A stretch of DNA of 64,000 bases from an uncultured Chloroflexia bacterium (GTDB lineage: Bacteria > Chloroflexota > Limnocylindria > QHBO01): the NCBI GenBank assembly GCA_963844415.1, contig CAWJOA010000005.1:412876-476875 (forward strand). The letters run 5' to 3'. Positions 5,632-60,653 of the stretch are shown piece by piece. The notes below the pieces were generated by a model. The model saw only the letters and a program-made list of their open reading frames with translations, was not told where the DNA came from and searched no databases. Position 1 is the stretch's first letter. The number at the start of each line of letters is the position of its first letter. A program made the position numbers and the translations under genes.

Positions 5632-5632
5632 A

Positions 5633-36922: not shown

Positions 36923-37046
36923 GCCCGCGGGGGCGAGTGCCACTGTATGGCGATGAAGCAATCGACTGCGGTCTTCCAGTGCCGATTACGCCAATGTCAA
37001 GTTTCTCCCATCGGGTTCCAAGCGAGCTGGTCATACACTCAGGTTG

Positions 37047-37538
37047 ATGCCAGAGACTGACAGCGCTCTCCTGACTCTATCCGCCGAATCACCGGATCTC
37101 GGAGAGGCGGAGTGGGTACGGTCTGGGGAGGTTCGATGGTCTCCGCGACTTGGAACCGAACCAGTAACTGGAGACGAGCTCGCTCGTAGAGATGCCCGAC
37201 TCGCGGAGCGACTCCGCCACGCGTTTGGTACTTCGCCGTATGGCCCCGTAACCCGAGATGCGGTGACGGCGAAGAAGGCCCTCGAAGTCGCAACCGGGAC
37301 AGAGGTGCGTGAAGGGCGGGGAGGGCTCCCAGCTTGCACCTGCACCCTCGGAGTCGCGCGGAGCGGGTCTGACGCGGAGCAGTACGCCGATCTCCACTTG
37401 GCTTATGCAGCCCTTGATCAAGAACACGACAGACGCATCTACACCTGCGCACAAACCGGTCGGCACTGGCAGCTGGTATACCGTGGCAGTTACTACCCCG
37501 ACGCGGATTTGTCGCCGCTGTCCGACCTCGATGCGTGA
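37047..37538 (+). CDS. Hypothetical protein
   Basis: Track ORF 37044..37538. No recognisable motif. Coding is inferred from ORF length only. Confidence 0.4.
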   Translation: MPETDSALLTLSAESPDLGEAEWVRSGEVRWSPRLGTEPVTGDELARRDARLAERLRHAFGTSPYGPVTRDAVTAKKALEVATGTEVREGRGGLPACTCTLGVARSGSDAEQYADLHLAYAALDQEHDRRIYTCAQTGRHWQLVYRGSYYPDADLSPLSDLDA

Positions 37539-37749
37539 GGTCCGGTCGTGATGTGGCTCACTGGCACTTGCAGGCGTCGTCGTCCCAAACGTCCGGGCCT
37601 AGCGGCCACCCGAGGTCAAGTAGGCCGTTTTGCAGGCGCCGCAGCCAAGGGAATCGGCTTCATGATGTGGACGGGTCTGTGACAATGGAATCTCGGAGCG
37701 CACGCACGCCTACGGGTGGGTGAGGCGGGTCCACATGAGGCAATGACCG

Positions 37750-38349
37750 ATGGTCGGGCAATTGGACTTCGCGCAGACGGTGGCGGCGGGCGCAGTCAAT
37801 GCGCTGTTCACGGCGGCGTTCACGGCGGCCTTCGTGGTGATCTTTGGCGGGATCGTCGTGCGATGGTACGAGGGGCGCGCCACTGATCGGCGTCGGCACG
37901 AGGAAGAGCTCCATGAGGAGTTCTTGCAAGGTCGCCAGCTCGAGCACCAGACCCGCGCCGCCTTGCGCGAAACCTACGCCCGCTTTCTGGTGGCACAGCG
38001 GCGGTCACGACAAGCTTCCATAGCCCTCGCGGACGCCGGCGGCTCGTCTTCCGCCAAGGATCTTGACAAGGCGGCTCTGCAGGCGCACGACGAGTTCATT
38101 GACGTGTATCACCTGCTAAACCTCGACGCATCACGAGAGATGTGGCTGGACGCGCGCGGGCTGCGGGCAGCGCTGGACGATTTGCTCAAACTCGGCCAAA
38201 AAGGCAACGCGGCGGAATGCGAGCCGCTCGTAGAGCTAGCGCGGAAGTTACGCCAAAACCTCGAATGGAGCTTCCGGCTCCGTCTCGACCCCAAGCGACC
38301 GCCCCTCCAGGACCGGAACAAGGACGTCGGCGAGTACGCTCGAGTCTGA
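37750..38349 (+). CDS. Hypothetical N-terminally membrane-anchored helical protein
   Basis: Track ORF. TM segment AVNALFTAAFTAAFVVIFGGIVV followed by a charged helical region. Confidence 0.45.
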   Translation: MVGQLDFAQTVAAGAVNALFTAAFTAAFVVIFGGIVVRWYEGRATDRRRHEEELHEEFLQGRQLEHQTRAALRETYARFLVAQRRSRQASIALADAGGSSSAKDLDKAALQAHDEFIDVYHLLNLDASREMWLDARGLRAALDDLLKLGQKGNAAECEPLVELARKLRQNLEWSFRLRLDPKRPPLQDRNKDVGEYARV

Positions 38350-38440
38350 ATCTGGCAACAGCTCACACCGCGGTACCGGGATTCGGCTTCATGGCGTCTC
38401 GGCACTGCTCTCCAGTGCCGGAGGTTACTCGGCGCCCCTC

Positions 38441-38761
38441 TCAATCGTGTGCTATCCAGCTGACAAGCACGCTGTAGATCAGCGAATCCCCAAACGTCGT
38501 TACGCGAATATTGAACTCCTCGGCTTGCACCTCTTCGGCACTCACCGTGACGCGGAGGTTGAACTGGTGTTCTGCGTCGATTACGGCCAGCGCCACGATA
38601 ATGCGCGGCGGAAGTTCGAACGGCACCTTGAAGGGAATGTCCAGCGAGCGGGACGTTCTTGGGGCTCCTCCTTCGGAGCCCTCAGGCCCCGGGACGTTTA
38701 GGGTCCATTCCGGCGAGTCGGCTGCGCCGTCCCCGAGTTCTATGATTCCGGACTGAATCAT
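38441..38761 (-). CDS. H-type lectin domain-like protein, 106 aa
   Basis: Track ORF. The pattern IPFKVPFELPPRIIVALAVID...FNIRVTTFGDS...VLVSWIAHD resembles the H_lectin fold signature. AGGAGGA lies 9 nt upstream. Confidence 0.5.
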   Translation of the reverse strand: MIQSGIIELGDGAADSPEWTLNVPGPEGSEGGAPRTSRSLDIPFKVPFELPPRIIVALAVIDAEHQFNLRVTVSAEEVQAEEFNIRVTTFGDSLIYSVLVSWIAHD

Positions 38762-38853
38762 CGTGCGCGGTCCTCCTGCAACGCCGCGGTTCCTCCGCGG
38801 CTTAGGAGGACATTGTCCCTATGGCCTATGCGGTAACACTGCGGCGGCATAAG

Positions 38854-38920
38854 GAAGCCGCGGCTATCCCGACGCACCGATCCTCCCTGCTAGCTCAGGA
38901 GGCGGGTATGGCCGGGCTTC
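38854..38920 (+). repeat. Dispersed palindromic repeat, copy A (full length, ~67 nt)
   Basis: GAAGCCGCGGCtatcccgacgcaccgatCCTCCctgctagctcaGGAGGcgggtatgGCCGGGCTTC, with outer and inner arms complementary. Confidence 0.7.
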
Positions 38921-38990
38921 GCGGTGGCTCGAGTCGGAGGCTACTCCTGGGTCGCTTACTGGCGGCTTACTGACTCGAAGGCGTCTCGGA

Positions 38991-39236
38991 CTATGGAGCG
39001 GGGCACGCGGGAGTGTCGAAACCCCCAGCGCCGAAACTGAGTGGAGGGATCAGGCCGCTGATCACCGCCGCTGCAGGCGTGTCGTCGACCCGGTTGGCGC
39101 CATCATCCTCAACTCCGACGCAGCGGAGCGGGGTGATTCCGTGCACATGTGCTGACGCGGTTCCGATAGCTGCCACACTCAGCATTGCTGCGGTGACAAT
39201 GGCGATGCCGATTCGTCGCATGGGGACTCCAGTCAC
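38991..39236 (-). CDS. Small secreted protein (hypothetical)
   Basis: Track ORF. Signal peptide MRRIGIAIVTAAMLSVAAIGTASA. Confidence 0.4.
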   Translation of the reverse strand: MTGVPMRRIGIAIVTAAMLSVAAIGTASAHVHGITPLRCVGVEDDGANRVDDTPAAAVISGLIPPLSFGAGGFDTPACPAP

Positions 39237-39310
39237 AGAGCGAGTTCCGTCAGTGGTTGATACGCAGCAAGTTGCCCGCCGCCTCGAGGGAGCTCGCGAA
39301 ATGGGGACGC

Positions 39311-39378
39311 GCCGCTATCCCGGACGCACCGATCCTCTCTGCTAGCTCAGAAGGCGGATACTGGCCGGGCTTCGCGGC
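39311..39378 (+). repeat. Dispersed palindromic repeat, copy B (full length)
   Basis: gccgctatcccggacgcaccgatcctctctgctagctcagaaggcggatactggccgggcttcgcgg. By eye it aligns with copy A along its whole length, with scattered substitutions and two 1-nt indels. Confidence 0.7.
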
Positions 39379-39403
39379 GGCGCGACTGTCCGCGGACCTA
39401 ACG

Positions 39404-39872
39404 CTAGCGGCGAAGGAGCGTCACTAGAACACCCAGCGCCGCGCCATAGACCAGTGGGCTGCGACCATCGTCATGACGCGCGCACGCCGGTCGCTCGATG
39501 CGGGCGGCATGATGCCAAGAGCCGGGACACAGCTCTGATAGCTCACGAGCCAGATACACGTTGCGTAGATCATGCCCTTGACCGCCGCGATCGCGAGCGA
39601 GCTGTGTGCGGACCTCGGTCGCGTCGTCAGAAGGCCGAACAGGGCGCCGGCAAACGCTCCGAAGCCGAGGTGCACGACGGCGGCGATGGCATCTCGCCGT
39701 GATCATCCGGCTGTTCTGAAGAGAACGCGTCGATCGCCCTGCCGGTGATCCGCTCGGGCGGCAACTCTCCGGTGACACCCGCTCGCTTCGCCCCGAGCAT
39801 GACCGCGCTCATCGAGACTGTTGAGAGGACACCGGCCGTGGCGCCGACTAACGAGGAAACTACAGCCTTCAT
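39404..39872 (-). pseudogene. Small multi-TM membrane protein with at least two frame breaks
   Basis: MKAVVSSLVGATAGVLSTVSMSAVMLGAKRAG... (ORF 39627..39941) continues as HLGFGAFAGALFGLL...IWLVSYQ (ORF 39424..39675). A plausible C-terminus VYGAALGVLVTLLRR lies in a third frame (ORF 39404..39778). Confidence 0.45.
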
Positions 39873-39947
39873 GCTGGCCGTTGAGCAAGGGCCGTACCGG
39901 CCCCGGCGGCCGCGAGCAGACCGAATGCGCCGCCTAGTCACCGCCAG

Positions 39948-40030
39948 AGCGCTATCCCCGCACCATTCAGAAAGCCGCCGCTATCCCCTGCTCATCCACA
40001 GGCGGCAGACCTGGGTGGTTGCGGCCGGCG
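39948..40030 (+). repeat. Dispersed repeat, degenerate copies D'/D
   Basis: agcgctatccccgcaccattcag is followed by gaaagccgccgctatccc[15-nt gap relative to copy A]ctgctcatccacaggcggcagacctgggtggttgcggccggcgg. Confidence 0.5.
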
Positions 40031-40077
40031 GATAGATCCAGTCCGCCGCACCGCTGACTTGCACGTAGGATCAGTCC

Positions 40078-40964
40078 ATGCGTGGCCTACTGAGCCGAGT
40101 GTTGGTAATCGGTGCCGATCGCGCGGACGACGAGGACACGCGGCTTCGGAAACTACTGCTGCTCGTTACCGCGCTCACCATGACGCCGCTTTCCGTCCTC
40201 TGGGGACTCCTCTATTGGCTGGCAGGAAACCCTATGGCCGCACTCATCGCATGGACATACGTAGGCGTGTCGTTCATCGGTCTGAGCACGTTCGCCGCAA
40301 CGCGCCGATATCCATGGTTCGCCGCGAGCCAGTTCACGCCGTACATGATCCTTCCATTCGTCCTGATGTGGGCGTTAGGCGGGCCGATCAGCGGCAGCGC
40401 GGTCCACTATGGGCTGGACTTGGGCCGATCTATGCCCTCTTGCTCGGGCATCGACGGCTGGCGACTCTCCTCGCGGGCGCATACGCGGCGCTGGTATATG
40501 TCAGCGACCTCGCTCCAGCTCCCGTAGATGCGGATACCGCGGTCGAGTCGCGCGAACAACACTACGACTAGAACTTGGCTAGAGTGCCCTTAGAGGCGTG
40601 GCTGTTGGTGCGGGTCTTTGCCGGTGGACGCGAAGGCGCCTTGGCGACGGTCTGGACAGTCGACCGCCGCTATCTCCCCGCAGACTACGTCACGCTGCTC
40701 AGCGCCGATCCACAGCGCCGCGACCTCGGCGGTCAGGTGGCCGAGACACGCTGTAGTACGCCGATCTCGGAGACTACTCGGCCTATGCCAGGCGAGAGCA
40801 CCGAGCGAGGTGGACGCCTAGCGAACTGGTACTACGGTGCCGCGAAGCCAGCGATCAACGAGGAGGGCGGCACGCCTGTGCACCTCCCAGGCGACGCGAC
40901 TACGCTATCTACGGCGCGACGACGCTGCGAGCTGACAAGCTGCGCGAGAAAGTCGGGCGGCTAG
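40078..40964 (+). pseudogene. Decayed membrane-anchored class III adenylate cyclase (N-terminal TM region plus degenerate catalytic domain)
   Basis: DEDTRLRKLLLLVTALTMTPLSVLWGLLYWLAGNPMAALIAWTYVG is the typical cyclase membrane N-terminus. There is a frame break near 40400 and an in-frame TAG at 40569-40571. RYLPADYVTLLSADPQRRDLGG...LANWYYGAAKPAINEEGGTPVHLPGDAT aligns in spacing with RYLP...LGGE...LLNxYFxxMxxxIxxxGGTVDKFIGDA, with hydrophobic positions lost. Confidence 0.6.
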
Positions 40965-41790
40965 CGAGATCTAGGAGCGGACTGCGCAACTAGGCGAACT
41001 GCCGATCAGCGGACTGCGCTACAGCAACGGCAACAACTAAGAGAAAGAGATGGAGGGGAACAACGAGAGAGACGAAAAAAGAAACTACAAAGAGAAAGGA
41101 GACAAGACAAAAGACGATACGAGACTACAGAACGACGAGAGAGACGGGAAAAAAGAAAAAGGGATGGAGACTGCTAGGCTACTAGATGGAACGAGGGAAA
41201 TGGAGGCTCTAGGAGAGATCACGAGAAGGGACGGTCGAACACGGACGACGCTATGAGGAACGAAACACGGCGCTGAACAATGCTGGCCTGAGCTCCTCGA
41301 GACGGATCGACCGAGCACGAGCGGCGACGGCTACTCGAAGGCAATGACCGAACCAGAGACACAAGTGGATCGGAACGAGAACGAGCCGACTGACAAGTCC
41401 GCAAGTCTGCCACGAGCGCCACACCAACGGTGCCAGCGAACTCCACCTAGAGGAACAGCCCTACTGAGAGACGACCTGCACGCAGAGTCCATACAAAGCG
41501 ATTCTAGCTAGTCTGGCTCAAGATCGAACGGTGCCGGCACGAGCCGGCACGACACAGACGAGACGGTACCACTGAGCAAGACTACAGATCGCGCGAGAAC
41601 CCAAGAGCGAGAACTCGGACGGCGACACGAGAGCGAGCGCAGGGCGACGACCTGATGGCGACGGAACGGCACAGCGGAACAGACCCGAGAAGGCGAAGGG
41701 CGCACCAGTCTCGGTGACGAACGAGTCGGATGACTCGAGGTAGCAGACCGGCGCGGCGAGCACGGTAGGAGACCCCAGCTCCCTCGACTT
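40965..41790 (+). other. T-depleted, purine-rich non-coding-looking tract
   Basis: Hand count over 41041-41760: 242 A against 65 T in 720 nt. In 41041-41160 there are 66 A and 4 T in 120 nt, about 85% purine. Stop codons occur in all + frames. Confidence 0.8.
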
Positions 41791-41891
41791 GCCCGCGAAG
41801 AGGAAGGGGGCGGCGTCGTCATCCCACTGGCGCGTCTGCAGGCGGCCCTCGACGGCGCCAGCTGGCCCTTCAACAGGGCTCGCACATCTGG

Positions 41892-42344
41892 CTACGGTGT
41901 ATCGAGGTTGTACTGTCCCGGAGCCCATGGGGCTGGCTGTGCCGGTCCATCGGCAGCCGCGACCATGCCGGCGACGAGGATCAAAATCATGAGCAGCATC
42001 ATGCCTGCCAACACGATCCAACCGGTTCGACCGGATGACGGCTCATCGCTGCGCCGAGGGACTGTGGCGGCGCGTGCGCCGTGCCAGTCCGGCTGGCCGC
42101 TGGGCGGCCATTCCCAGACAGCCATCGCCAATCCGCCGCGGGCACGCCGATGCTGATCCGATAGTGTCTGCCACGCCTCGTTGATGGCTTGCATTCGCTT
42201 GCCGGATCCATCGGCTGCCAAATCGGGATGGAATTGCTTGGCGAGACGGCGTCGAGCACGCGCGATCTCGAGGAGCGACGCGCCGCGGGGAACGCCGAGC
42301 ACGACGTACGGGTCGGCGCCTTCATGAGTCACGGCAACCTCCAT
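41892..42344 (-). CDS. J-domain protein with C-terminal TM anchor
   Basis: Track ORF. DPYVVLGVPRGASLLEIARARRRLAKQFHPD, and TM segment GWIVLAGMMLLMILILVAGMVAA. Confidence 0.7.
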   Translation of the reverse strand: MEVAVTHEGADPYVVLGVPRGASLLEIARARRRLAKQFHPDLAADGSGKRMQAINEAWQTLSDQHRRARGGLAMAVWEWPPSGQPDWHGARAATVPRRSDEPSSGRTGWIVLAGMMLLMILILVAGMVAAADGPAQPAPWAPGQYNLDTP

Positions 42345-42410
42345 CCCTCACGGGTGGGGCTGCGACGAGTGGCCGGACTATTGTCGAGGCGTGGTCAACT
42401 GGCGACAGTG

Positions 42411-42453
42411 GACCGCCGACAACCCGACGCACCGATTCTCCCGGCTAGCACGG
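42411..42453 (+). repeat. Dispersed repeat, left-half copy F (diverged)
   Basis: gaccgccgacaacccgacgcaccgattctcccggctagcacgg. Confidence 0.5.
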
Positions 42454-42486
42454 TGGGGCACAAATGCCGAGCTCGCAGGTGTCCCC

Positions 42487-42585
42487 ATGCCTGATCCGTT
42501 GGTGTGGCTCACGGCCGCCCTCCTCGCGGCAATCATCGCGGTCGTAATGCGCGCCTTGAGCTGGTTCAACAGGCGGCGACGGTGA
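42487..42585 (+). CDS. Possible 32-aa single-TM peptide
   Basis: ATG 42487 follows AGGTG by 5 nt. MPDPLVWLTAALLAAIIAVVMRALSWFNRRRR, mostly GC3 codons. Below the track size cut-off. Confidence 0.25.
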   Translation: MPDPLVWLTAALLAAIIAVVMRALSWFNRRRR

Positions 42586-42591
42586 GCACTC

Positions 42592-42628
42592 GGAAGCCGC
42601 CGCTGTCCCGCGACACCAATACTCCCTG
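42592..42628 (+). repeat. Dispersed repeat, left-half copy G (diverged)
   Basis: ggaagccgccgctgtcccgcgacaccaatactccctg. Confidence 0.55.
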
Positions 42629-42654
42629 ATGCCCTAGCAGCCAGCTAGTCAGAC

Positions 42655-42691
42655 GAAGCCGCCGCTATCCCGACGCACCGATCCTCCCTGC
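42655..42691 (+). repeat. Dispersed repeat, left-half copy C
   Basis: gaagccgccgctatcccgacgcaccgatcctccctgc, 36 of 37 identical to copy A. It lies 21 nt beyond the pgsA stop. Confidence 0.7.
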
Positions 42692-42711
42692 CACAAACAG
42701 GGATGACGCCA

Positions 42712-43326
42712 CTAGCCGTCGTGCGGCGGGTCCCCGACCAGGATCGGCCAGGCGGCGGCGACGTAGGCGTAGCCCGAGATGACGCTGAGCGCCGTGGCAG
42801 CGGCGAGGACCCACAGCCCGACGACATGGATCACGACGCCGGTGCCGGTTGCGGCCAGCGGCCCGCCGCTCGCCGCATCGGCCGCGAGCAGGAGCAGGGC
42901 GATGCCGGCGTTCGTGGCGAGCGTCTTGGCCTTGCCCAATGCGCGGGCGCTGATCACAACGTCCTCGGCCGCGGCGAGCTGACGGACGGCCTGCACGACG
43001 AACTCGCGGATGAGGATCGTCGCCGCGATCCAGGTCGGGACGAGGCCGGCCTCGACCATCGCGATGAGGACGCCGGCGACGAGGACCTTGTCGGCGGCCA
43101 GGTCCATGAACACGCCGAGTGGCGTCACCTCGTGGCGAGCCCGCGCGATCCAGCCGTCGGCGACGTCGCTGAGGGCGGCGACGACGAAGAGGATGGCGGC
43201 GGCGAGATCGGTTCCCTCACCCGGCAGGAGGAGGAGCGCCATGACGACCGGCGTGGCGAGGATGCGGCCAACGCCGAGGAGGTTCGGAAGGGTGGCGATC
43301 GTGCCGGGCCGCGTTCGATCGGCCAT
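42712..43326 (-). CDS. pgsA: CDP-diacylglycerol--glycerol-3-phosphate 3-phosphatidyltransferase
   Basis: Track ORF. DVADGWIARARHEVTPLGVFMDLAADK is the CDP-alcohol phosphatidyltransferase motif. Confidence 0.85.
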   Translation of the reverse strand: MADRTRPGTIATLPNLLGVGRILATPVVMALLLLPGEGTDLAAAILFVVAALSDVADGWIARARHEVTPLGVFMDLAADKVLVAGVLIAMVEAGLVPTWIAATILIREFVVQAVRQLAAAEDVVISARALGKAKTLATNAGIALLLLAADAASGGPLAATGTGVVIHVVGLWVLAAATALSVISGYAYVAAAWPILVGDPPHDG

Positions 43327-43931
43327 CAGTGCTCGCCCAGCCTGCGCTCGGTGCCCGACAGCAGCCGACCGATGTTATCGGCGTGCGCGACGATCACGAC
43401 GACCGCGATGAGCGCGGCAGCCACGACGACCTCGAGCCCGACCCAGCCGATGGCGTAGAGGACGCCGCTCACCAGCACGACGGTGATCGAGGCGCTGATC
43501 GACGCGAGCGACACGAGCCGGGTCGCCGCGACGATCACGACGAGCTCGACCGCCGCCGCGACCGCGGCCAGCGGCGCGAGCACGAGCATCGCCCCACCGC
43601 CGGTGGCCACCCCGCGACCGCCCTTGAAGCCGATGAAGACCGACCACACGTGACCGATGACCGCCGCCACCGCGGCGAGGGCGCCAGCCCACGGCTCGGG
43701 ACCGATCGCGTTGGCCGCCAGGACCGCCACCACCCCCTTTGCGAGGTCGAGCACCGCGACGGCCGCGGCCCAGCGCCTGCCGAGGCTGCGCAGCGCGTTC
43801 GTCGTGCCGGTTCGACCCGAGCCGGAAGCCCGCGGGTCACGCCCGGCCAGGCGGCCGATGACGACGCCGGACGGAAAGGCGCCGATGAGGTAGCCGACGA
43901 TGACCGCGACGACGAGGCTGAGCGCCGGCAT
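43326..43931 (-). CDS. plsY: Glycerol-3-phosphate acyltransferase PlsY
   Basis: Track ORF. Motifs GSGRTGTTNALR and FKGGRGVATGGG. The stop overlaps the pgsA start. Confidence 0.9.
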   Translation of the reverse strand: MPALSLVVAVIVGYLIGAFPSGVVIGRLAGRDPRASGSGRTGTTNALRSLGRRWAAAVAVLDLAKGVVAVLAANAIGPEPWAGALAAVAAVIGHVWSVFIGFKGGRGVATGGGAMLVLAPLAAVAAAVELVVIVAATRLVSLASISASITVVLVSGVLYAIGWVGLEVVVAAALIAVVVIVAHADNIGRLLSGTERRLGEH

Positions 43932-44295: not shown

Positions 44296-45673
44296 TCAGC
44301 CACGCGGGTCGAACGAGCGTGGCCGAGGACGGCGCGTGCCCGACGGTCCCATCCCGCCGCGTTCACCGGGGTAGTCGACCTTCAGCTGCACCGGATCGGA
44401 GCCGAAGATGGCGTGGACGAGCCAGTCCATCCCCACGCGCGCCTTGCCGCCGATCCCCGGCACCCGGGTCCAGTAGTAGCCGCGCCACATGAACCACGCG
44501 ATCCAGCCACGGACCTTGATCCCGAACACGACCCCGACGCCGGTGCGGTGGCCGATGCTGGCCAGCGTCCCGATCACCTCGTAGCGGAACGGCCGGATCT
44601 CCTGCGTGCGCCCGTCGATCGCCGCCATCACGTTGCGGGCCAGCTGCTTCGCCTCACGCACCGCGTTCTGGGCCGTCGGAGCGTGGAACGCGCCGTCAGT
44701 GTCGGCATCGGGGATGCGCGCGCAGTCGCCGATGGCCCACACCCCGGGCCGGCTCGTCTCCATCGTCGGCTGCACGACCGCTCGGCCGGCGCGGTCGACC
44801 TCGATCCCCGACTCGCCGACCATCGGCGACGGCTGGACGCCGCCGGTCCAGATCACCGTCCGCGCAGGGATGTACTCACCGTCGCCGATGACGACGCCGC
44901 CCTCGCGGACCTCGCGGATCGGCGTTTCGAGGTGGATCTGATAGCCGCGCTCGCGGAGCTTGCGGGCGGCGTACTCCCCCATCTCTGCGGGCATCTCGGG
45001 CAGAACGCGGTCCTTCAGCTCGACGAGGTGGACCCGGATCTCATCGGCGCCGGATCTTCGGGTAGAACCGCCGCCGCACGCGGCGGATGAAGTCCTCGAT
45101 CTCGCCCGCCGTCTCGACCCCGCTGAACCCGGCGCCGCCGACGACGAACGTCAGCTCCGCGGCGCGCTCGTCGGGCTGATCCTCGAGGTCGGCGCGCTCG
45201 AGCATCTCGATGATCCGGTTGCGGAGGGCGAACGCATCGGCCAGCGTCTTCATGCCGACCGCGAACTCGTCGATGCCCGCGATCCCGAACGTGGCCGTCT
45301 CGCCGCCGAGGGCGATCACCAGGCTGTCGTAGTTGAGCCGATGCAGGTCGCCGTCGCCGCCGAGCACCGTGACCTGCGTCGCGTCGAGGTCGATGCCCTC
45401 CACCTCGGCCGTCACCGCCCAGCTCGACGGGCGGCGCATCTGGGCGCGGAGGGCGGTCACGCAGTGGCGCGCCTCGATGTGGCCGGAGCAGACCTCCGGC
45501 AGCAGCGGCGTGAACAGCGAGAAGTTCTCGCGGCTGACGAGCCAGATCTCGACGTCGTCCCGTCGCCGCGTGAGCCGCTCGAGGTGCTTCGCCGTCTCGA
45601 CCCCGGCGAAGCCGCCGCCGAGGATGAGGACGCGATGCGGCCAGGGCGGCTCGGATCGATAGATCGTGCGCAT
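44296..45673 (-). CDS. ndh: Type II NADH dehydrogenase, frame broken once
   Basis: The N-terminal half is track ORF 45041..45673 (RVLILGGGFAGVE, VVGGAGFSGVE). The C-terminal half is ORF 44296..44994 (VWAIGDCA). The junction FYPKIR/DEIRVHLVELKDRVLPEM needs a 1-nt correction near 45040-45050. Confidence 0.8.
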
Positions 45674-48635: not shown

Positions 48636-49130
48636 TCAGCCGTCTGTCGGCAGCCGCGCGCCGCACGCGCCGCAGAACGCGTCTTCGTCGTCCAGGATCA
48701 CGGCCCGGCAGCCGGGGCAGCGGTCGGGCAGGAGCTCCGCCACCGTCGCGCGCACGCCGACGACGGTCGCCTTGGCGTAACGCTCGACCGCCGTCTGCGG
48801 CCCCGGCAGCGAGTACACGGGCGTGAACGGAACCTGCGGACGCGGGCGGAATGCGACGGAGCCACGCATGTCATGGAACCGCCGACGCTCGCGGTCGTAG
48901 ATGGCTCGGCTCTCGGGATCGGTCAGGACCTGGCGCACCGTGTTGACGACCTGCATCTCGGCCGTGGCCCGCGTCGACCGGTTGTGGTCCGGATGGAAGG
49001 TGCGCGCCAGCCGCCGGCAGGCGGCGGTGATCTCATCGGTCGAGGCCGACGATGGGACGCCCAACAGGCGGTAGACGTCGCGGTCGGGGGTGTACGGAAG
49101 AAGCGGCTGGAGCATCGGGACCTCGGTCAT
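48636..49130 (-). CDS. J-domain protein with C-terminal zinc ribbon
   Basis: Track ORF 48636..49184. DVYRLLGVPSSASTDEITAACRRLARTFHPD, and CPGCRAVILDDEDAFCGACGARL. Confidence 0.7.
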   Translation of the reverse strand: MTEVPMLQPLLPYTPDRDVYRLLGVPSSASTDEITAACRRLARTFHPDHNRSTRATAEMQVVNTVRQVLTDPESRAIYDRERRRFHDMRGSVAFRPRPQVPFTPVYSLPGPQTAVERYAKATVVGVRATVAELLPDRCPGCRAVILDDEDAFCGACGARLPTDG

Positions 49131-49211
49131 GGTAGCGCCTTGGCCCGGGTGGTGCCGCGAGGAACCGCATCGCGTGATTAGCAACAGCCATTGCTATTTT
49201 GCCATGCAGAC

Positions 49212-55658: not shown

Positions 55659-57404
55659 ATGCGCGCTGCACCGCCGACGACGTCCTCGCGTCAATTGACA
55701 CGATTCGTCCCGATCCTCGAGTGGTCGAGAAGCTACGACCGCCGATGGCTCCGCGGCGACCTCATCGCCGGTGTCGCTGTCGCGGCGATGATCGTGCCCA
55801 AGAACCTCGGCTACGCGGGCATCGCAGGGATCCCCGTCGAGAACGGGCTGTATGCGGCAGCGGCGGCAGCGATCATCTACAGCCTCTTCTGCACATCTCG
55901 ACACATCTCGACCGGCCCGAGCTCGTCGCTCGCGGCCGTCGCCGGCGGCGCGGTCATCTTGACGGGCCTCAGTGGCAACGAGGCGGCACAGATGGTCGCG
56001 GCCATCGCCGTCGTGACCGGCGCGCTGTTCCTCCTGGTCGCCGTCCTCAGGCTCGGCTGGCTGGCGAGCTTCCTCTCGCTGGCGGTCGTGACCGGATTCC
56101 TCGCCGGCGCCGCGATCGACGTCGTCATCGGCGAGCTGCCAAAGCTCACCGGAACATCCGCCGACGGCGTGAATGCGTGGCAGGAGCTCGCGTCGTGGTT
56201 CCGTGGGCTGGGCGACCTCAGCCTGGCGACGTTGCTGGTCGGCCTGGTTGCCCTTGCGGTCATCCTCGGGCTTCGATTTGCGTATCCGAGGATGCCGGGT
56301 GCGCTCGTGCTCGTGGTCGGCGGCCTGATCGGCTCGGTCGTCCTCGACCTCGGAGCGCAGGGAGTCGCGCTGGTGGGCCCCGTCCCACGCGGGCTGCCGC
56401 TTCCGCAGCTGCCATCGCTCGAGGTCGTGTCGCAGAACCTCCCGACGATCGTCATCTCGTCATTCGCGCTCCTGCTCATCGGGTTCTCCCAGACTGCGGG
56501 TGATGCCCAGGCATTCGCGACGAAGCATCGGTATCGCATCGACCTCAACCAGGAGTCGGTGGCACAGGGAATGGCAAACGTCGGCGCCGGCGTCTTCCAG
56601 GGAATGCCCGTGTCCACCAGCCTCTCGGCGAGCTCGCTGAACGAGTCCGCAGGGGCGAGGACGCCGGTCGCCTCGCTCGCAACCGGAGGGATCGTCGTCG
56701 CGACGCTGATCCTCCTCGCGCCGCTCTTCTCCGAGCTGCCCAAGGCGGTCCTGGGCGCGATCATCATCGACGCGGTCGTCTTCGGGATGATCAACCTCGC
56801 GGAGTTCGGACGGCTTCGGCGGGTGAAGCCGTTCGATTTCTGGATCGCGATCGCCGCAGTCATCGGCGTGCTGTCGGTGGGGGTGCTGCTCGGCGTCGTC
56901 GTCGGCATCGCGCTGTCCCTGCTGTGGCTCATCAACGTCGCGACCCGACCGTCCATGCCGATCCTGGGGCGTGAGCCCGGCACGCACGTGTACCGCGATC
57001 TCGACGAGCACCCGGACGGCGAGACCTATCCGGGGGTGGCGGTGATCCGGATCGATGGTGGCGTGTTCTTCGCGACGGCTGCGGCCCTGGACGAGCGCGT
57101 GCGCGCGATCCTCGGGAGCCAGCCCGACCTGCACTCACTCGTGCTGGACCTCGAGGGCGTGAACTTCGTCGACTCGCAAGGCGCAGCGAAGCTGAGCGAC
57201 CTCCATGAGCTGACCGAGACGAACGCGATCGAGCTGCGCCTCGCCCGGGTGAAGCCCGACGTGTCAAGGGTGCTGGCGGCCGATGGGCTCATCGACCGGA
57301 TCGGGCGCGAGCGGATCCACGGCAACGTCCACCGGGCGGTCGAGGCGGCGAAGAGAGCAGATGCTCGAAGACAGGAGGAGGCAGCAACGCCGCCCACACC
57401 GTAG
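55659..57404 (+). CDS. SulP family anion permease with C-terminal STAS domain
   Basis: Track ORF. Motifs RGDLIAGVAVAAMIVPKNLGYAGIAG and LVLDLEGVNFVDSQGAAKL. Confidence 0.9.
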   Translation: MRAAPPTTSSRQLTRFVPILEWSRSYDRRWLRGDLIAGVAVAAMIVPKNLGYAGIAGIPVENGLYAAAAAAIIYSLFCTSRHISTGPSSSLAAVAGGAVILTGLSGNEAAQMVAAIAVVTGALFLLVAVLRLGWLASFLSLAVVTGFLAGAAIDVVIGELPKLTGTSADGVNAWQELASWFRGLGDLSLATLLVGLVALAVILGLRFAYPRMPGALVLVVGGLIGSVVLDLGAQGVALVGPVPRGLPLPQLPSLEVVSQNLPTIVISSFALLLIGFSQTAGDAQAFATKHRYRIDLNQESVAQGMANVGAGVFQGMPVSTSLSASSLNESAGARTPVASLATGGIVVATLILLAPLFSELPKAVLGAIIIDAVVFGMINLAEFGRLRRVKPFDFWIAIAAVIGVLSVGVLLGVVVGIALSLLWLINVATRPSMPILGREPGTHVYRDLDEHPDGETYPGVAVIRIDGGVFFATAAALDERVRAILGSQPDLHSLVLDLEGVNFVDSQGAAKLSDLHELTETNAIELRLARVKPDVSRVLAADGLIDRIGRERIHGNVHRAVEAAKRADARRQEEAATPPTP

Positions 57405-57413
57405 CCGCAGTGC

Positions 57414-57490
57414 TGGCGCGCCCGGAGGGATTCGAACCCCCGACCTGCTGATCCGAAGTCAGCTGCTCTGATCCACTGAGCTACGGGCGC
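57414..57490 (-). tRNA. tRNA-Arg (anticodon TCG), CCA encoded
   Basis: GCGCCCG ta GCTC agtggatca GAGC a GCTGA ctTCGga TCAGC aggtc GGGGG ttcgaat CCCTC CGGGCGC g cca. All four stems pair. Confidence 0.9.
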
Positions 57491-57590
57491 ACTATTCACG
57501 CTCAAACTGAGCGGAAAACTCGTTCTGCATTGTGCCACAGCGCTCAGTGCAGGCCACGGGGTCATGAGGGGGCGCTAGACCAGATTGGTG

Positions 57591-58697
57591 CTAGGCACCT
57601 GGTCCTTCTACCCGAGCACGCTGCGCCTGTAGGGCTGCTTCGCGCTCATGGTGGCGAGTGATTTCGTGGGGGTCCGCGCCCGAGTGCTCGCATGGGTTGA
57701 CGTGGATGATCGCCATGTCAAGCCGGGATATCTCGTGAAGCAGACGGTGACGTACCTCCTCCGAAACCCGGTGGCCATCCGCGACAGTGAGATCGCGATC
57801 GACGGTGATCGCGAGCGTTGCCTCGAGACCATGGCCGAGCCACCGCACGCGGAGACGCTCCACGTCCTGGACCTCCGGCACCGACGCCGCAACCGCCTCC
57901 ACCTGCTGAACGATCTCCGGCTCGACGGCGTCCATGAGCCGGGCGACAACATGGCCCGCGGCCTGGCGCAGGACAAACAGAATGACGACCGTGATGAGCA
58001 GCCCGACGAGTGGGTCGGCAAGCGGGTAGCCCGCCGCGACGCCGATGGCTCCAGCAACGACTGCCAGCGATGTAAGCCCGTCGGTCCGGGCGTGGTGGCC
58101 ATCCGCCACGAGGGCGGCCGACCCGATCGAGCGTCCCACCCGTATCCGGTACAGGGCGACCGCCTCATTGCCCACGAACCCGATCACACCCGCGACCATG
58201 ACGATCGGAAGATTCGCGACCGGCTGCGGATCGATGAGGCGATGAATCGATTCGTATGCGGCGAGGCCCGCTGACGCGGCGATCATGAGCAGGATGAACA
58301 GGCCCGCCAGGTCCTCCGCACGCCGATAGCCGAAGGTGTAGCGTCTGGTGGCCGCCCGGCTGCCGAGGGCGAACGCGATCCACAAGGGTACCGAGGTCAA
58401 CGCATCGCTGAAGTTGTGGACCGTGTCCGCGAAGAGGGCCACCGACCCCGAAATCAGGACTACCCCGAGTTGGGCGAGGGCGGTGACTCCGAGGACCGCC
58501 AGCGACACCTTGACTGCCCGGATGCCGCGAGCGTCGGAGGTCAGCGCATCGTCGACCGAGTCGGACGGGTCGTGGGAATGCCCAAGGATGCCCGCAAGGA
58601 AGCCACGCACGCCAGCATGGCGGCGGATGTGGTCGGCGTTATGAGCGTGGCCGTGGCCGTGCTCGTCAGGGACAGCGTCGCGCAGCTCATCGGACAC
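57591..58697 (-). CDS. Cation diffusion facilitator (CzcD/ZitB-like) with His-rich N-terminus
   Basis: Track ORF. Motifs DEHGHGHAHNADH, ALFADTVHNFSDALTS, HHARTDGLTSL. TACACT-N6-GTG precedes the start. Confidence 0.9.
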   Translation of the reverse strand: MSDELRDAVPDEHGHGHAHNADHIRRHAGVRGFLAGILGHSHDPSDSVDDALTSDARGIRAVKVSLAVLGVTALAQLGVVLISGSVALFADTVHNFSDALTSVPLWIAFALGSRAATRRYTFGYRRAEDLAGLFILLMIAASAGLAAYESIHRLIDPQPVANLPIVMVAGVIGFVGNEAVALYRIRVGRSIGSAALVADGHHARTDGLTSLAVVAGAIGVAAGYPLADPLVGLLITVVILFVLRQAAGHVVARLMDAVEPEIVQQVEAVAASVPEVQDVERLRVRWLGHGLEATLAITVDRDLTVADGHRVSEEVRHRLLHEISRLDMAIIHVNPCEHSGADPHEITRHHEREAALQAQRARVEGPGA

Positions 58698-58822
58698 GGA
58701 GCAAGTGTAGGCCGCCTGTGTGCCGCTTCCTCATTTCGAATCTGGCGCGTCGGATCGGTACGGTGCGGTTGAGGCTTGCCCAACCGCCAATGCGAACGGC
58801 GCGACGTGGTCCTGTGCGGAAC

Positions 58823-60039
58823 CTATCGAAGAAGGACGATACCCAGGGCGCCGGCTCCCAAGATGACGACCGGAACCGCCGCGCCTGCCCGCCAGAGGTA
58901 GAGGGCCGCAAGCGCCAATCCGAAGATCAGCACCGTTAGCAGGCTCGTCAGAGCGGCCATCCCGAGTTGCAGGGTGGTGGCGGCAACCAGGCCAATGACT
59001 GCGGCCGTAATGCCATCGAGGATGGCGTGTAGGCGGTGGTTGTTGACCATCCGCTCCAAGAGGCCGTGCCCGAGCAAGGTGATAGCAAAGGCAGGCACGA
59101 ACATCCCGACAGTGATTGCCGTTGCGCCGACGATGCCGCCGCCGACGAAGCCGACGAACGTCGCGAAGATGACCAGTGGCGCCGGGATGATGCCTGCGAG
59201 GGCCAGGCCATCGAGAAACTGATCGTCGCCCATCCAGCCATCCGACCCGACCGCATCGTTCCGGACGAAGGGGATCGAGGTATAGGCGCCGCCGAACGTC
59301 AGTGCCCCGCCCTTGAGGCCGGTGACGAATAGCTGGCCGGGAGTCACCTCCGCGCCTGAACTGGCAGGCAGTTCTGCTCGGTTGGAAAAGCCGAGGTCGG
59401 CAACGATCACGAACACGATCGCCACGGCTAGAAGCACCAGCGGAACACCAGCCACTCGCGAGTGGCCGCGCTCATCCAGCAGGAAGACGAGCCCACCGAC
59501 CGTGAGCGGAATCACAAAGGGCAGGCCCGCCAAGCCAGCCCCGGCCGCCAACCCCGCCACCACAAATGAGACTGGGCTCCCCAGAACTCGCTCGCCGATG
59601 CGGTGGAAGCCGCGCAGGACAAGAGCGACCACCGCGGCTTGGCAACCGGCGAAGGCCGCCGCGACGATCGGGGACTCGAGACCCGCCTCGACGTAGAGCC
59701 ACGACAACGTCAGCATCAGCATGAAGCCCGGCAGCATGAAGCCGAGCCCGGCGAGCAGTCCGCCGATGCGTCCACGGGCGACCATGCCGAAGAAACCGCC
59801 AGCTCCTGCGCCTCTGGACCGGGGAGTACTTGGTAGACCGCCAACGTGCGGTTGAATCTCGCTGACGAGATCCACTCTTGCTGGTCGACCAAACCGGTCC
59901 GGAGCATGCCGATCTGCGCGACCGGACCACCCCAAGCCAGTATCCCGAACCGCAGAAAGCGCACAAATAACGAGGCAAGCGACTGATGGGGTGGACCTGC
60001 TTCGTTCTGCCCGCGGTCGGCATGGGGGGCGATGCTCAC
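58823..60039 (-). CDS. chrA: Chromate transporter family protein, frame broken once
   Basis: The N-terminus is track ORF 59716..60039 (FLRFGILAWGGPVAQIGMLR...VLPGPEAQELA). The rest is ORF 58823..59935 (FFGMVARGRIGGLLAGLGFMLPGF...). The break is near 59785-59800. TAACCT-N7-GTG precedes the start. Confidence 0.8.
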
Positions 60040-60201
60040 GCCGCCTAGGTTACGGTGAGCGTCTGGCTTGGCTCCCGCCTAACCGGGAACCGTCAGGCCG
60101 TTGCGGATGCGGGCCGCCTAGCAAAGCCAGAAGAGAGCAGATAACTCGACACGTTTCGCTCCCCCATCCACGCTTGGGCTACAGCGCATCGGCCGGGATA
60201 G

Positions 60202-60304
60202 TCCGAAGTCAGCTGCTCTGATCCACTGAGCTACGGGCGCCGATTCACGCTCAAACAGAGCGGATAACTCGTCCCTGCATTGTGCCACAGCGCTTACTCA
60301 GTGC
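60202..60304 (-). repeat. Truncated tRNA-Arg (positions 1-38 only) plus upstream flank; direct repeat of 57452-57550
   Basis: 39 of 39 nt are identical to the tRNA 5' half, up to the 3' edge of the anticodon loop. The following ~60 nt match roughly 90%, with a 4-nt indel. Confidence 0.8.
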
Positions 60305-60361
60305 CTGAGCGTGCGGAGAGAGGCGGCAGAGCTGCCGCGATCGGGTCTGCCCTCCGAAGCT

Positions 60362-60385
60362 TCACACTAACCACTGTTAGTGTGA
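60362..60385. promoter_or_regulatory. Perfect 10-bp inverted repeat (hairpin or operator)
   Basis: TCACACTAAC-cact-GTTAGTGTGA. Confidence 0.4.
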
Positions 60386-60525
60386 TCACGCTTTAGGGCA
60401 TCCTGGATCGGTCTACTGGCGGGACGCGGCGCGGGTGCAGCGAAAATACCTGGCGGCTTCCGCTCGAGGGCAGCCTCACGCCACGGGTCTCCTGTGCTCG
60501 GGAGCCGAGGAGTTAGAGTTAGAGA

Positions 60526-60574: not shown

Positions 60575-60604
60575 GGTGTACCGATTGCACCGAGCGTGCC
60601 ATCC

Positions 60605-60638: not shown

Positions 60639-60653
60639 ACAAGGCGCGCCCGG

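What the first reader, a model, noticed from the sequence alone, without database searches (positions are those of the whole stretch)
40965..41790. 0.8-kb T-depleted, purine-rich tract with no credible ORF, directly 3' of a decayed cyclase gene
By hand count, 41041-41760 holds 242 A and 65 T (34% against 9%). The core 41041-41160 has 66 A and 4 T in 120 nt and is about 85% purine (gagaaagagatggaggggaacaacgagagagacgaaaaaagaaac...). I saw nothing comparable elsewhere in the window. The pentamer ACGAG occurs at least 12 times in ~700 nt. All + frames carry stops. The one + ORF (41050-41256) is a K/E/D/R peptide written in AAA/AGA/GAA codons that look foreign to this host. The minus-strand ORFs are S/L/P/V low complexity. 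T content appears to fall stepwise along the upstream pseudogene: the membrane remnant looks normal, the catalytic remnant (40575-40964) has lost its hydrophobic positions, and this tract is the extreme. One reading is strand-biased hypermutation of a dead gene. Alternatives are an acquired non-coding RNA, a disordered-protein gene, or a triplex-prone polypurine tract.
Basis: seen in the sequence. Interest (0 to 1): 0.7.

Follow-up and report, generated by a model that had tools for sequence, protein, structure and literature searches.

The report
Adenine-directed hypermutation overlay on a cyclase gene
The odd A-rich, T-poor stretch is the back two-thirds of an otherwise intact membrane cyclase gene, plus about 0.5 kb behind it, in which well over a hundred T, C and a few G bases on one strand have been replaced by A, a pattern no known bacterial process produces, so it is either a new kind of strand-specific hypermutation or an unusual sequencing artefact.

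Summary
The window's strongest A/T-skew outlier lies at 41041-41760 (242 A, 64 T; core 66 A, 4 T).

The tract is not downstream of the cyclase. An intact orthologue (L003, Chloroflexota MAG) aligns base for base with window 40078-41278, so the core is the cyclase catalytic domain.

- Compared with L003 and ten other homologues, the changes in 40400-41278 are overwhelmingly to A. Window-unique bases are A 98, T 14, G 5 and C 4.
- The dose is graded. T not preceded by C rises from 0-25% to about 100% changed. C reaches about 50% only in 41039-41222, G about 13%, and A is untouched.
- There are seven 1-nt deletions and no longer indels.
- T after C is spared (3/43).
- Reverting the A's and filling the deletions restores an intact 401-aa MASE6-cyclase. 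The remaining differences are mostly synonymous.

So this is a recent overlay on a working gene, not slow decay. It is confined to one gene cassette bounded by about 80-nt palindromic repeats. No RT, Rfam hit, RNA structure or second copy was found.

My best reading (about 0.45) is error-prone synthesis of the + strand, with dAMP inserted opposite minus-strand purines. The main rival (about 0.3) is a long-read sequencing or assembly artefact. The raw reads would decide between them.

The parts
39942..40047 (+). Partial copy of the roughly 80-nt palindromic intergenic repeat. It marks the left boundary of the cyclase cassette; homology with L003 begins at 39988.
40078..40399 (+). 5' part of the cyclase gene (MASE6 membrane domain). 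It is 91% identical to L003 with an ordinary substitution spectrum and is not affected by the overlay.
40400..41038 (+). Ramp zone of the overlay. T to A at T's not preceded by C rises from 0-25% to about 100%, while C to A stays at 15% or less per 40-nt bin. Five single-nucleotide deletions fall here (after 40404, 40744, 40789, 40822 and 40897), plus one after 40935. The first of them is the frameshift that ends ORF P0001.
41039..41222 (+). Core of the overlay, corresponding to residues 323-384 of the catalytic domain. Of 64 differences from L003, 57 are to A. All T's not preceded by C are converted, about 50% of C's and about 10% of G's, while the A's are kept. Bases that are not A match L003 at 93%. 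There is no indel between 40936 and 41222.
41223..41278 (+). Last 56 nt of cyclase homology, carrying a moderate dose. The ancestral stop codon TGA lies at 41274-41276. One 1-nt deletion lies after 41222.
41279..41790 (+). Downstream half of the tract. It has the same composition (T about 10%, A about 30%) and the same sparing of T after C (51% of remaining T's follow C, against 35% background). No ancestor was found at DNA or protein level.
41791..41877 (.). Stretch of normal composition ending at the cassette junction at 41877/41878. It may be a degenerate remnant of the repeat. Close relatives L057, L058 and L059 each carry different DNA on this side of the same junction.
41892..42344 (-). 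Neighbouring gene for a J-domain membrane protein. It is 94-95% identical to L057 and L058, has an ordinary substitution spectrum, and shows no indel against the short-read-derived L058. It marks where the overlay is absent.

Best explanation
The tract covers the 3' two-thirds of a MASE6 / class III nucleotidyl cyclase gene (40078-41278) and the remaining roughly 0.5 kb of the same gene cassette. A recent burst of base changes, all in one direction, has been laid over it.

On the + strand, bases were replaced by A in the order T (unless preceded by C), then C, then G. Existing A's were never changed. A few single-base deletions accompany the substitutions. The dose varies along about 1.4 kb and saturates in 41039-41222.

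The mechanism I think most likely is one or a few rounds of template-directed but very low-fidelity synthesis of the + strand on a minus-strand template, either an antisense RNA or single-stranded DNA of the cassette. The polymerase put dAMP opposite template A almost always, except when that A is followed 3' by G. It put dAMP opposite template G about half the time at the peak, and rarely opposite C. The product then replaced the resident strand by recombination or repair.

The only known enzymes that misread template purines at tens of percent per site in a single pass are the mutagenic reverse transcriptases of diversity-generating retroelements. An enzyme of that general kind, with relaxed specificity (A then G) and a strong dATP preference, is therefore the best candidate.

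Shown: the identity of the DNA, the direction, spectrum, context dependence, dose profile and recency of the changes, and the confinement to one cassette. Inferred: that the changes exist in the organism's DNA, which strand was synthesised, the enzyme class, and the recombination step.

The result is a dead cyclase gene. The purine richness, the ACGAG copies and the K/E/D/R ORF are by-products with no function of their own.
For: - Colinear base-for-base alignment with the intact orthologue L003 across 40078-41278.
- Spectrum against L003 over the 3' part (L003 2929-3734): T to A 56, C to A 44, G to A 14. Every other class is 17 or fewer, and the 5' 400 nt show an ordinary spectrum.
- Polarisation with 11 homologues: at conserved sites T to A 37, C to A 33, G to A 10. 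Window-unique bases are A 98, T 14, G 5 and C 4, whereas no other lineage shows such a bias.
- One spectrum applied at different doses. T's not preceded by C saturate first, and C follows only in the core.
- The core is substitution-only: no indel in 287 nt at 37% divergence, and its non-A bases match L003 at 93%.
- The context effect lies only on the 5' side on the + strand. Position -1 gives p=1e-6 (T after C 3/43, T after T 22/34), while position +1 gives p=0.5. T after C is spared even where that C itself became A, so the template context matters rather than the primer end. G after C is also spared (0/25).
- The same one-sided neighbour effect (the template's 3' neighbour), about 50% error per template A, dATP as the commonest misinsertion in vitro, and G as the next most error-prone template base are all reported for the Bordetella DGR reverse transcriptase (PMC7826257, PMC12875486).
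- Recency. The other differences are 39 synonymous to 24 non-synonymous. Identity ignoring A-sites is 0.907 in the 3' part against 0.94 in the 5' part.
- The first changes to A, including the TAG stop they create at 40525-40527, are present in a publicly deposited protein that matches 100% (P0001).
- The neighbouring J-domain gene has no such changes and no indel against a short-read contig.
- The tract ends inside the cassette, about 90 nt short of a junction shared by three relatives.
Against: - No known natural process gives pyrimidine-to-adenine changes at up to 100% per site.
- No reverse transcriptase, Avd, polymerase or recombinase gene was found among about 55 ORFs of the window.
- No template/target pair was found in the window.
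- Only one assembly carries the tract, and no independent copy of the hypermutated ORF was found among 5.8 billion proteins.
- The source looks like a long-read-only metagenome assembly. This is inferred from its relatives and from 1-nt frameshifts in two other genes nearby.
- A 'recent overlay on an intact gene' is also exactly what an artefact would look like.
- The dose profile (ramp, plateau, shoulder) has no simple explanation from a single polymerase pass.
- The outcome at template A is 84% A, much more one-sided than that of the known DGR enzyme (A 43%, C 34.5%, G 22.5% of errors in vitro).
Confidence: 0.45

Rival explanations
1. Sequence-record artefact. The organism carries an intact cyclase gene, and the changes to A and the 1-nt deletions were introduced during long-read basecalling or consensus. 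One route is systematic mis-decoding of a stretch supported by very few reads, possibly of one orientation only, at a strain-variable cassette junction.
For: - The overlay sits on an otherwise intact, constrained gene.
- It is present in only one assembly.
- Relatives with the same repeat family come from Flye/Medaka nanopore-only metagenomes (PMC12313526).
- Two other genes within 5 kb carry single-base frameshifts in short homopolymers.
- The tract lies beside a junction where three relatives differ in structure, so local read support may be thin.
- The 41279-41877 stretch has no detectable homologue anywhere.
- Substitution-only, strand-specific nanopore miscalls are documented for telomere repeats, for example TTAGGG read as TTAAAA (PMC9414165).
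Against: - Noisy nanopore sequence normally carries many indels. Here 287 nt at 37% divergence have none, and the lengths of the new A runs match the orthologue exactly.
- Every non-A call is correct (93% identity to L003, equal to the background divergence).
- The errors would have to run in one direction to a single base, with a graded T, C, G hierarchy and a purely 5'-sided context effect.
- The documented precedent concerns tandem repeats, and this sequence is not repetitive.
- If the source followed the Microflora Danica protocol, contigs below 8x read depth were discarded.
- The J-domain gene 100 nt away agrees with a short-read contig without a single indel.
- No similar tract occurs in about 250 kb of related long-read contigs.
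Confidence: 0.3
2. Damage-driven version of a real event. The minus strand of the cassette spent time as single-stranded DNA, for example as a recombination, transformation or repair intermediate. It lost or had blocked many purines, and a translesion polymerase filled in the + strand by the 'A rule', inserting dAMP opposite non-instructive sites and sometimes skipping a base.
For: - The spectrum equals purine-to-T on the minus strand plus 1-nt deletions.
- That is the classic outcome of abasic-site bypass in E. coli: dAMP insertion plus targeted one-base deletions, both modulated by sequence context (PMC4167244).
- All changes are coordinated on one strand and confined to one cassette.
Against: - Bypass of a single abasic site is under 1% efficient in E. 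coli. More than 117 lesions on one molecule, at up to 100% of adenines, could not be replicated.
- Spontaneous depurination favours G slightly over A (established chemistry), whereas here A far exceeds G.
- Deletions make up only 7 against 117 substitutions, far fewer than in the cited assays.
- An adenine-preferring glycosylase or adduct with sparing of A before G would have to be assumed.
Confidence: 0.08
3. Gradual, local, strand-biased mutation pressure on a long-dead pseudogene. Transcription- or replication-associated asymmetry acting over evolutionary time would be one form of this.
For: The T loss along the gene is graded. The gene lies in a 5.8-kb island that lacks the genome's codon-position GC signal and carries another broken gene.
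Against: - No ordinary decay accompanies the changes to A. There are no indels longer than 1 nt, the other differences are mostly synonymous, and identity ignoring A-sites is the same as in the unaffected 5' part.
- The equally non-functional 5' part downstream of the first frameshift (40405-40480) is almost untouched.
- The boundaries of the core are sharp.
- No known asymmetry gives transversions to A at saturation.
Confidence: 0.06
4. A canonical diversity-generating retroelement is at work. On this reading the tract is either a template repeat or a variable repeat of a DGR.
For: - Template adenine is the most error-prone base, dATP misinsertion is common, and the template's 3' neighbour matters.
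- The core of about 184 nt lies at the 3' end of a gene.
Against: - There is no RT or Avd gene in the 64-kb window.
- There is no second copy, even when A positions are masked.
- About half of the template G's are also changed.
- The outcome is nearly always A rather than any base.
- The affected length is 1.4 kb rather than about 100-150 bp.
- The target is inactivated by stops and frameshifts rather than diversified.
Confidence: 0.04
5. A functional element selected for its composition: a purine-rich non-coding RNA, a K/E/D/R-rich disordered protein, or a triplex-forming polypurine tract.
For: A 68-aa ORF lies at 41050-41256, and the core is 85% purine.
Against: - No Rfam match at E up to 1.
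- The RNA folds worse than shuffled controls (z = +1.29).
- No Pfam hit and no homologue for any frame.
- Every feature is explained as the cyclase sequence with bases replaced by A.
Confidence: 0.02

Closest known systems
Adenine mutagenesis by diversity-generating retroelements (Bordetella phage BPP-1 bRT-Avd)
   Same: It is strand-specific and localised, and a polymerase misreads template adenines at tens of percent per site in a single pass. In vitro, dATP is the commonest misinsertion, G is the next most error-prone template base, and the template's 3' neighbour has the largest effect (PMC7826257, PMC12875486).
   Different: No RT, Avd or template/variable repeat pair was found. Template G is misread at about 50% in the core, against 1.6% for bRT-Avd. 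The outcome is 84% A rather than a spread over three bases. The tract is 1.4 kb rather than about 0.1 kb. The gene is destroyed, not diversified.
Abasic-site bypass by the 'A rule' (SOS / Pol V type translesion synthesis)
   Same: The net changes are A:T to T:A and G:C to T:A, together with single-base deletions, and sequence context modulates them (PMC4167244).
   Different: Known bypass is under 1% efficient per lesion and has been studied for single lesions. Here more than 117 changes occur on one strand, at saturation, with template A affected far more than template G.
Deaminase-driven strand-coordinated hypermutation (APOBEC/AID kataegis, retroviral G-to-A hypermutation) and fungal RIP
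   Same: These produce dense clusters of one-directional changes on one strand that can inactivate a gene.
   Different: Those changes are transitions (C to T, or G to A) caused by deamination. RIP also needs duplicated DNA and acts on both strands. Here the changes are transversions of pyrimidines to A, in a bacterium. This comparison rests on established knowledge, not on a test here.
Nanopore repeat-calling errors (TTAGGG called as TTAAAA)
   Same: The errors are substitution-only, strand-specific and directed towards A, and they can be reproducible across reads (PMC9414165).
   Different: They are described for long tandem repeats under-represented in the training data. The present sequence is a unique coding sequence with a graded dose.
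Integron gene-cassette arrays
   Same: Small genes are separated by conserved imperfect-palindrome repeats of about 80 nt. Close relatives carry different neighbours at the same junction. A single-stranded recombination intermediate would offer a source of strand asymmetry.
   Different: The repeat has no GTTRRRY / RYYYAAC core. No integrase was found in the window or in 20 kb of L057. The genes lie in both orientations.

Membership tests
Class III adenylate/guanylate cyclase with MASE6 membrane domain (the gene underlying the tract) | Colinear homology over the whole length with intact family members | tested here: met
   Window 40078-41278 aligns with L003 2528-3733 with only eight 1-nt indels. 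There are blastn hits to more than 30 other homologues.
Class III adenylate/guanylate cyclase with MASE6 membrane domain (the gene underlying the tract) | Pfam PF00211 catalytic domain detectable in the translation | tested here: not met
   The actual ORFs give no Pfam hit at E up to 1. The orthologue scores 72.6 bits. The window sequence scores 68.9 bits once the A's are reverted and the deletions filled. It is therefore a pseudogene of the family, not a member in working order.
Class III adenylate/guanylate cyclase with MASE6 membrane domain (the gene underlying the tract) | Uninterrupted reading frame | tested here: not met
   There is a frameshift after 40404, a stop at 40525-40527, and six further 1-nt deletions.
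Diversity-generating retroelement | Reverse transcriptase (and usually Avd) encoded next to the repeats | tested here: not met
   No RT or Avd was found among about 55 ORFs across the 64-kb window. The rest of the genome could not be searched.
Diversity-generating retroelement | Template repeat / variable repeat pair that differs at template adenines | tested here: not met
   A scan of both strands of the window with A positions masked finds no partner above noise.
Diversity-generating retroelement | Changes restricted to template adenines and spread over the three other bases | tested here: not met
   Template G is also changed (C to A 44, against T to A 56). T to A: T to C: T to G is 56:8:3.
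Abasic-site / A-rule translesion mutagenesis | Purine-to-T changes on the damaged strand, with targeted 1-nt deletions | tested here: met
   Searches show the spectrum and the deletions. This matches the spectrum only.
Abasic-site / A-rule translesion mutagenesis | Presence of lesions, and a polymerase able to pass more than 100 of them | not testable with these tools
   Published bypass efficiency of under 1% per site argues against it.
Deaminase-type hypermutation (APOBEC-like, DddA-like) | C to T or G to A transitions dominate | tested here: not met
   C to T 17 and G to A 14, against 100 pyrimidine-to-A transversions.
Known structured RNA family (Rfam 15) | Covariance-model match, or a thermodynamically unusual fold | tested here: not met
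   There are no matches at E up to 1 in 38500-43500. The fold z-score is +1.29.
Integron cassette array (for the surrounding repeats) | attC sites with R'' RYYYAAC and R' GTTRRRY cores, and an IntI integrase | tested here: not met
   The repeat consensus lacks both cores. It does fold as an imperfect hairpin (z = -2.6 on one strand). No integrase was found in the window or in L057.
Long-read basecalling / consensus artefact | The alleles are absent from raw reads of the opposite strand or from short reads of the same sample | not testable with these tools
The indirect evidence is mixed.

The most novel reading that the evidence does not exclude
A real, previously undescribed bacterial hypermutation process. 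A mutagenic polymerase or reverse transcriptase copies one strand of a mobile gene cassette, inserting A opposite template A, G and occasionally C while sparing sites that follow a template G. The copy is then written back into the chromosome. In one burst this rewrites and kills the cassette gene. It would amount to a bacterial counterpart of RIP-like gene inactivation, or an off-target or ancestral form of DGR mutagenesis with a different specificity.
Probability: 0.2. Interest if true: 0.9.

Novelty: new variant of a known kind. Interest (0 to 1): 0.6.

Why it matters
If the sequence is real, it records a localised, strand-specific event that converted up to 100% of susceptible bases to adenine across more than 1 kb of a bacterial chromosome. 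No described bacterial mutagenic system has this spectrum (pyrimidine to A), this density or this context rule (sites after C are spared). It would point to an unknown error-prone polymerase or retroelement activity, possibly tied to the single-stranded intermediates of a cassette-shuffling system in Chloroflexota. It would also supply a ready-made signature with which to search other genomes.

If it is an artefact, it is a substitution-only, indel-free failure mode of long-read assemblies that turns an intact gene into an apparent pseudogene. Users of MAG catalogues would need to know about that. In either case the raw reads of one sample settle the question.

Tried and rejected
- Rfam search of 38500-43500 at E up to 1 found nothing.
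- Pfam searches of all ORFs and stop-free frames in the tract found nothing above noise.
- Tandem and inverted repeat searches found only short chance matches.
- A search for a second copy, or DGR-like partner, with A positions masked found nothing in either strand of the window or in 58 loci. The positive control scored 0.93.
- An A-neutral Smith-Waterman alignment of 41200-41900 against the DNA that follows the J-domain gene in L057, L059 and L060, and against L003 downstream of the cyclase, scored no better than shuffled controls.
- Scans of genome and metagenome collections for closer relatives gave 87% amino-acid identity at best (L003). None carries the tract.
- An exact look-up of nine tract ORFs in the 15-billion-protein collection found only P0001, the 5' ORF.
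- A homology search with the moderately mutated ORF 40575-40961 found no other copy.
- An exhaustive HMMER search with the 126-aa minus-strand frame 41521-41898 gave one low-complexity hit at E = 8e-5.
- Phase-specific composition analysis, meant to find a coding frame in 41285-41790, was uninformative.
- A DarT-type thymidine ADP-ribosylation motif (TNTC, recalled from memory) was considered. The observed context does not match, because T at position -2 is protective (1/27).
- N3-alkylation of + strand pyrimidines in single-stranded DNA was considered. It was rejected because C should then exceed T and G to T should appear. This rests on established chemistry and was not tested here.
- A double-strand break with two-sided resection was considered. 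It was rejected because the mutated strand does not switch along the tract.
Full report
**Observation.** The window is about 70% G+C. In 41041-41760 I count A 242, T 64, C 179 and G 235. In the core 41041-41160 I count A 66 and T 4, with 85% purine. This is the largest A-minus-T excursion in the window at window sizes of 120, 300 and 720 nt, at 6-8 standard deviations. The next candidates are ordinary minus-strand membrane-protein genes such as the chromate transporter at 58826-59935. In 340 kb of related loci fetched later, no 300-nt window exceeds |A-T| = 0.19, against 0.333 here. ACGAG occurs 13 times, where about 2 are expected.

**What the DNA is.** The ORF 40078-40527 has homologues that place the window in Chloroflexota of the Limnocylindria type. 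One locus, L003 (JALZJE010000079.1, a MEGAHIT short-read MAG contig), holds an intact 401-aa gene with a MASE6 membrane domain and a PF00211 cyclase domain.
- L003 aligns colinearly with window 40078-41278. The only gaps are seven 1-nt deletions and one 1-nt insertion in the window.
- The ancestral stop codon aligns at 41274-41276.
- The first 314 nt of the reported tract, including the extreme core, are therefore the C-terminal part of the cyclase catalytic domain and not DNA downstream of the gene.
- Homology to L003 ends at 41279.

**Spectrum and direction.**
- In the first 400 nt the two genes differ at 10% of sites, with an ordinary transition-rich spectrum.
- In the remaining 800 nt the differences are T to A 56, C to A 44, C to T 17, G to A 14 and A to G 12, with all other classes at 11 or fewer.
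- An alignment with eleven homologues polarises the changes. At sites conserved among the homologues the window shows T to A 37, C to A 33, C to T 13 and G to A 10.
- Bases seen in no homologue are A 98, T 14, G 5 and C 4. No other lineage shows such a bias.
- In the core 41039-41222, 57 of 64 differences are to A. The window's non-A bases match L003 at 93%, which is the background divergence.
- Between 40936 and 41222 there is no indel, despite up to 37% divergence.

**Dose and context.** T's not preceded by C are converted at 0-25% in 40400-40700, at 40-60% near 40800-40860, and at essentially 100% from 40880 to 41200. C to A stays at 15% or less until 41038, jumps to about 50% in 41039-41222, and falls to 0/11 after 41240. 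G to A reaches about 13% only in the core. A is unchanged at 26 of 27 sites. One relative spectrum (non-CT T: C: G of about 1: 0.15: 0.03) applied at different doses fits both zones.

The context dependence is one-sided.
- The 5' neighbour on the + strand matters. T after C is changed at 3/43, after G at 18/48, after A at 13/25 and after T at 22/34 (p = 1e-6). The 3' neighbour does not matter (p = 0.5).
- T after C is spared even where that C itself became A. G after C is never changed (0/25).
- Identical trinucleotides give mixed outcomes (for example CCG 5/9), so the process looks stochastic but modulated by context.
- In the downstream half 41285-41790, which has no comparator, 51% of the surviving T's follow C, against 35% in the rest of the window, and TT has almost vanished. 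The same process evidently extends to about 41790.
- The ACGAG copies derive from six different ancestral pentamers.

**Recency.** Differences from L003 other than those to A are 39 synonymous to 24 non-synonymous, where 27% synonymous is expected at random, and 40 of the 63 lie at third codon positions. Identity ignoring the A-sites is 0.907 in the affected part against 0.94 in the unaffected part. Reverting the A's and filling the deletions gives an uninterrupted 401-aa protein that scores 68.9 bits on PF00211, whereas the actual ORFs score nothing. The gene therefore evolved under constraint until the overlay was added. There is no sign of ordinary pseudogene decay.

**Surroundings.** The tract lies in a 5.8-kb island (36.9-42.75 kb) that lacks the genome's third-position GC signal. 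In this island small genes are separated by a conserved imperfect palindrome of about 80 nt:

GGAAGCCGCCGCTATCCCGACGCACCGATCCTCCCTGCTAGCTCAGGAGGCGGGTAATGGCCGGGCTTCGCGGCGGCTCC

- The same repeat separates small genes in relatives L057 (five copies), L058 and L003.
- The neighbouring J-domain gene (41892-42344, minus strand) is 94-95% identical to L057 and L058. Homology stops at 41877/41878 in all of them.
- Beyond that point L058 has a repeat, L057 and L059 have a SnoaL_2 gene, and the window has the tract. So 41877 is a cassette junction, and the overlay (about 40400-41790) is confined to the cyclase cassette (39988-41877).
- The J-domain gene shows an ordinary spectrum and no indel against the short-read-derived L058.
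- No RT, Avd, integrase, transposase or deaminase was found among about 55 ORFs.
- No second copy of the tract was found, even with A positions masked.
- There is no Rfam match, no RNA structure (z = +1.29) and no tandem repeat.
- No homologue of the downstream half was found at DNA or protein level.

**Explanation.** The changes amount to 'A written into the + strand in place of T, C or G', or equivalently minus-strand purines replaced by T.

The one-sided neighbour effect, and the fact that it follows the template rather than the product, are what is expected when a polymerase makes the + strand on a minus-strand template. The Bordetella DGR reverse transcriptase shows the same asymmetry. 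It misreads about half of template adenines in a single pass, inserts dATP most often in vitro, and has G as its next most error-prone template base (PMC7826257, PMC12875486).

A lesion-based version (abasic purines plus the A rule) reproduces the spectrum and the 1-nt deletions (PMC4167244). It fails on feasibility, however, because bypass is under 1% efficient per lesion, and on the excess of A over G.

I therefore favour one or a few rounds of intrinsically low-fidelity, template-directed synthesis, with the product then written back into the chromosome. An enzyme of the mutagenic-RT kind is the best candidate. This step is inference, and no such enzyme is encoded in the window.

**Main rival.** Everything above is also what a sequence artefact laid over an intact gene would look like.
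- The relatives that carry the same repeats come from Flye/Medaka nanopore-only metagenomes.
- Two other genes nearby have single-base frameshifts in short homopolymers. These are the DUF6789-like gene at 39424-39941 and ndh at 44296-45673.
- The tract abuts a junction that varies between strains, so read support there may be thin.
- No independent assembly or predicted protein carries the tract.
- Substitution-only, strand-specific nanopore miscalls are documented for telomere repeats (PMC9414165).

Several points argue against an artefact.
- There are no indels across 287 nt at 37% divergence.
- Every non-A call is correct.
- The sequence is unique rather than repetitive.
- The dose is graded and the context rule is 5'-sided.
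- If the Microflora Danica protocol applies, contigs below 8x read depth were discarded.
- The gene 100 nt away is free of indels.

I put the real event at about 0.6 in total: 0.45 for the polymerase version, with the remainder split among the lesion, gradual-pressure and canonical-DGR versions. I put the artefact at 0.3.

**Verdict.** The ncRNA, protein and triplex readings are not supported. The pattern has no described counterpart among bacterial mutational processes. Whether it is biology or an unusual long-read artefact can be settled by inspecting the raw reads or short reads of a single sample.

Noticed in passing
window 38846-38969, 39310-39385, 39942-40047 (partial), 42414-42460, 42599-42640, 42654-42691, 60611-60640; L057 8571-8683, 9840-9915, 10956-11014, 11568-11648, 12397-12480; L058 248-352; L003 about 2330, 4645 and 5100: A conserved imperfect palindrome of about 80 nt (9-bp terminal stem, inner CCTCC/GGAGG hairpin) separates small, unrelated genes. 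Close relatives carry different genes on one side of the same junction (41877/41878). This looks like a cassette-shuffling array in Limnocylindria-type Chloroflexota. There is no Rfam match, no integron attC core and no integrase nearby.
   Followed up: partly
window 36931-42751 and 57331-61000: Two islands lack the genome's strong third-codon-position GC signal and have a lower G+C of 62-66%. The second island starts at a tRNA-Arg gene (57414-57490, minus strand) and carries cation-efflux and chromate-transporter genes. Both were probably acquired horizontally.
   Followed up: partly
window 44296-45673 (-): A type II NADH dehydrogenase (Pyr_redox_2-like) gene is split into two ORFs by one extra C in ...CGGCGCCGATGAG... 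near 45000. This is either a real frameshift or a long-read indel error.
   Followed up: partly
window 39424-39941 (-): A DUF6789/DUF1440-like membrane protein gene is split by a single missing base (GAGGAT read as GAGAT near 39680). It is a second broken gene in the same island.
   Followed up: partly
L057 10001-10435 and 10606-10972: In the long-read relative L057, both the J-domain gene (three 1-nt insertions relative to the window and L058) and the SnoaL_2 gene (split in two relative to L059) carry single-base indels. This shows how frequent such errors are in that assembly family.
   Followed up: partly
window 14640-15362 (-): An AlkD-type 'DNA alkylation repair enzyme' glycosylase (PF08713, E = 3e-49) lies 26 kb from the tract. 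It excises alkylated purines and so creates abasic sites. No link to the tract was shown.
   Followed up: no
window 19861-23556 (+): A second, unrelated cyclase-domain gene (Guanylate_cyc + AAA_16 + TPR, 1231 aa) is intact and shows no similarity to the tract in the A-masked scan.
   Followed up: partly
window 1811-8427: A cyanophycin metabolism cluster: a peptidase S51 (cyanophycinase-like), a cyanophycin synthetase (916 aa), a second Mur-ligase-type protein on the opposite strand, and an M20 peptidase.
   Followed up: no
window 652-2529 (-), 41892-42344 (-), 48636-49184 (-): The window holds three separate J-domain (DnaJ) proteins of unusual architecture. Two of them are small membrane-anchored forms.
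   Followed up: no
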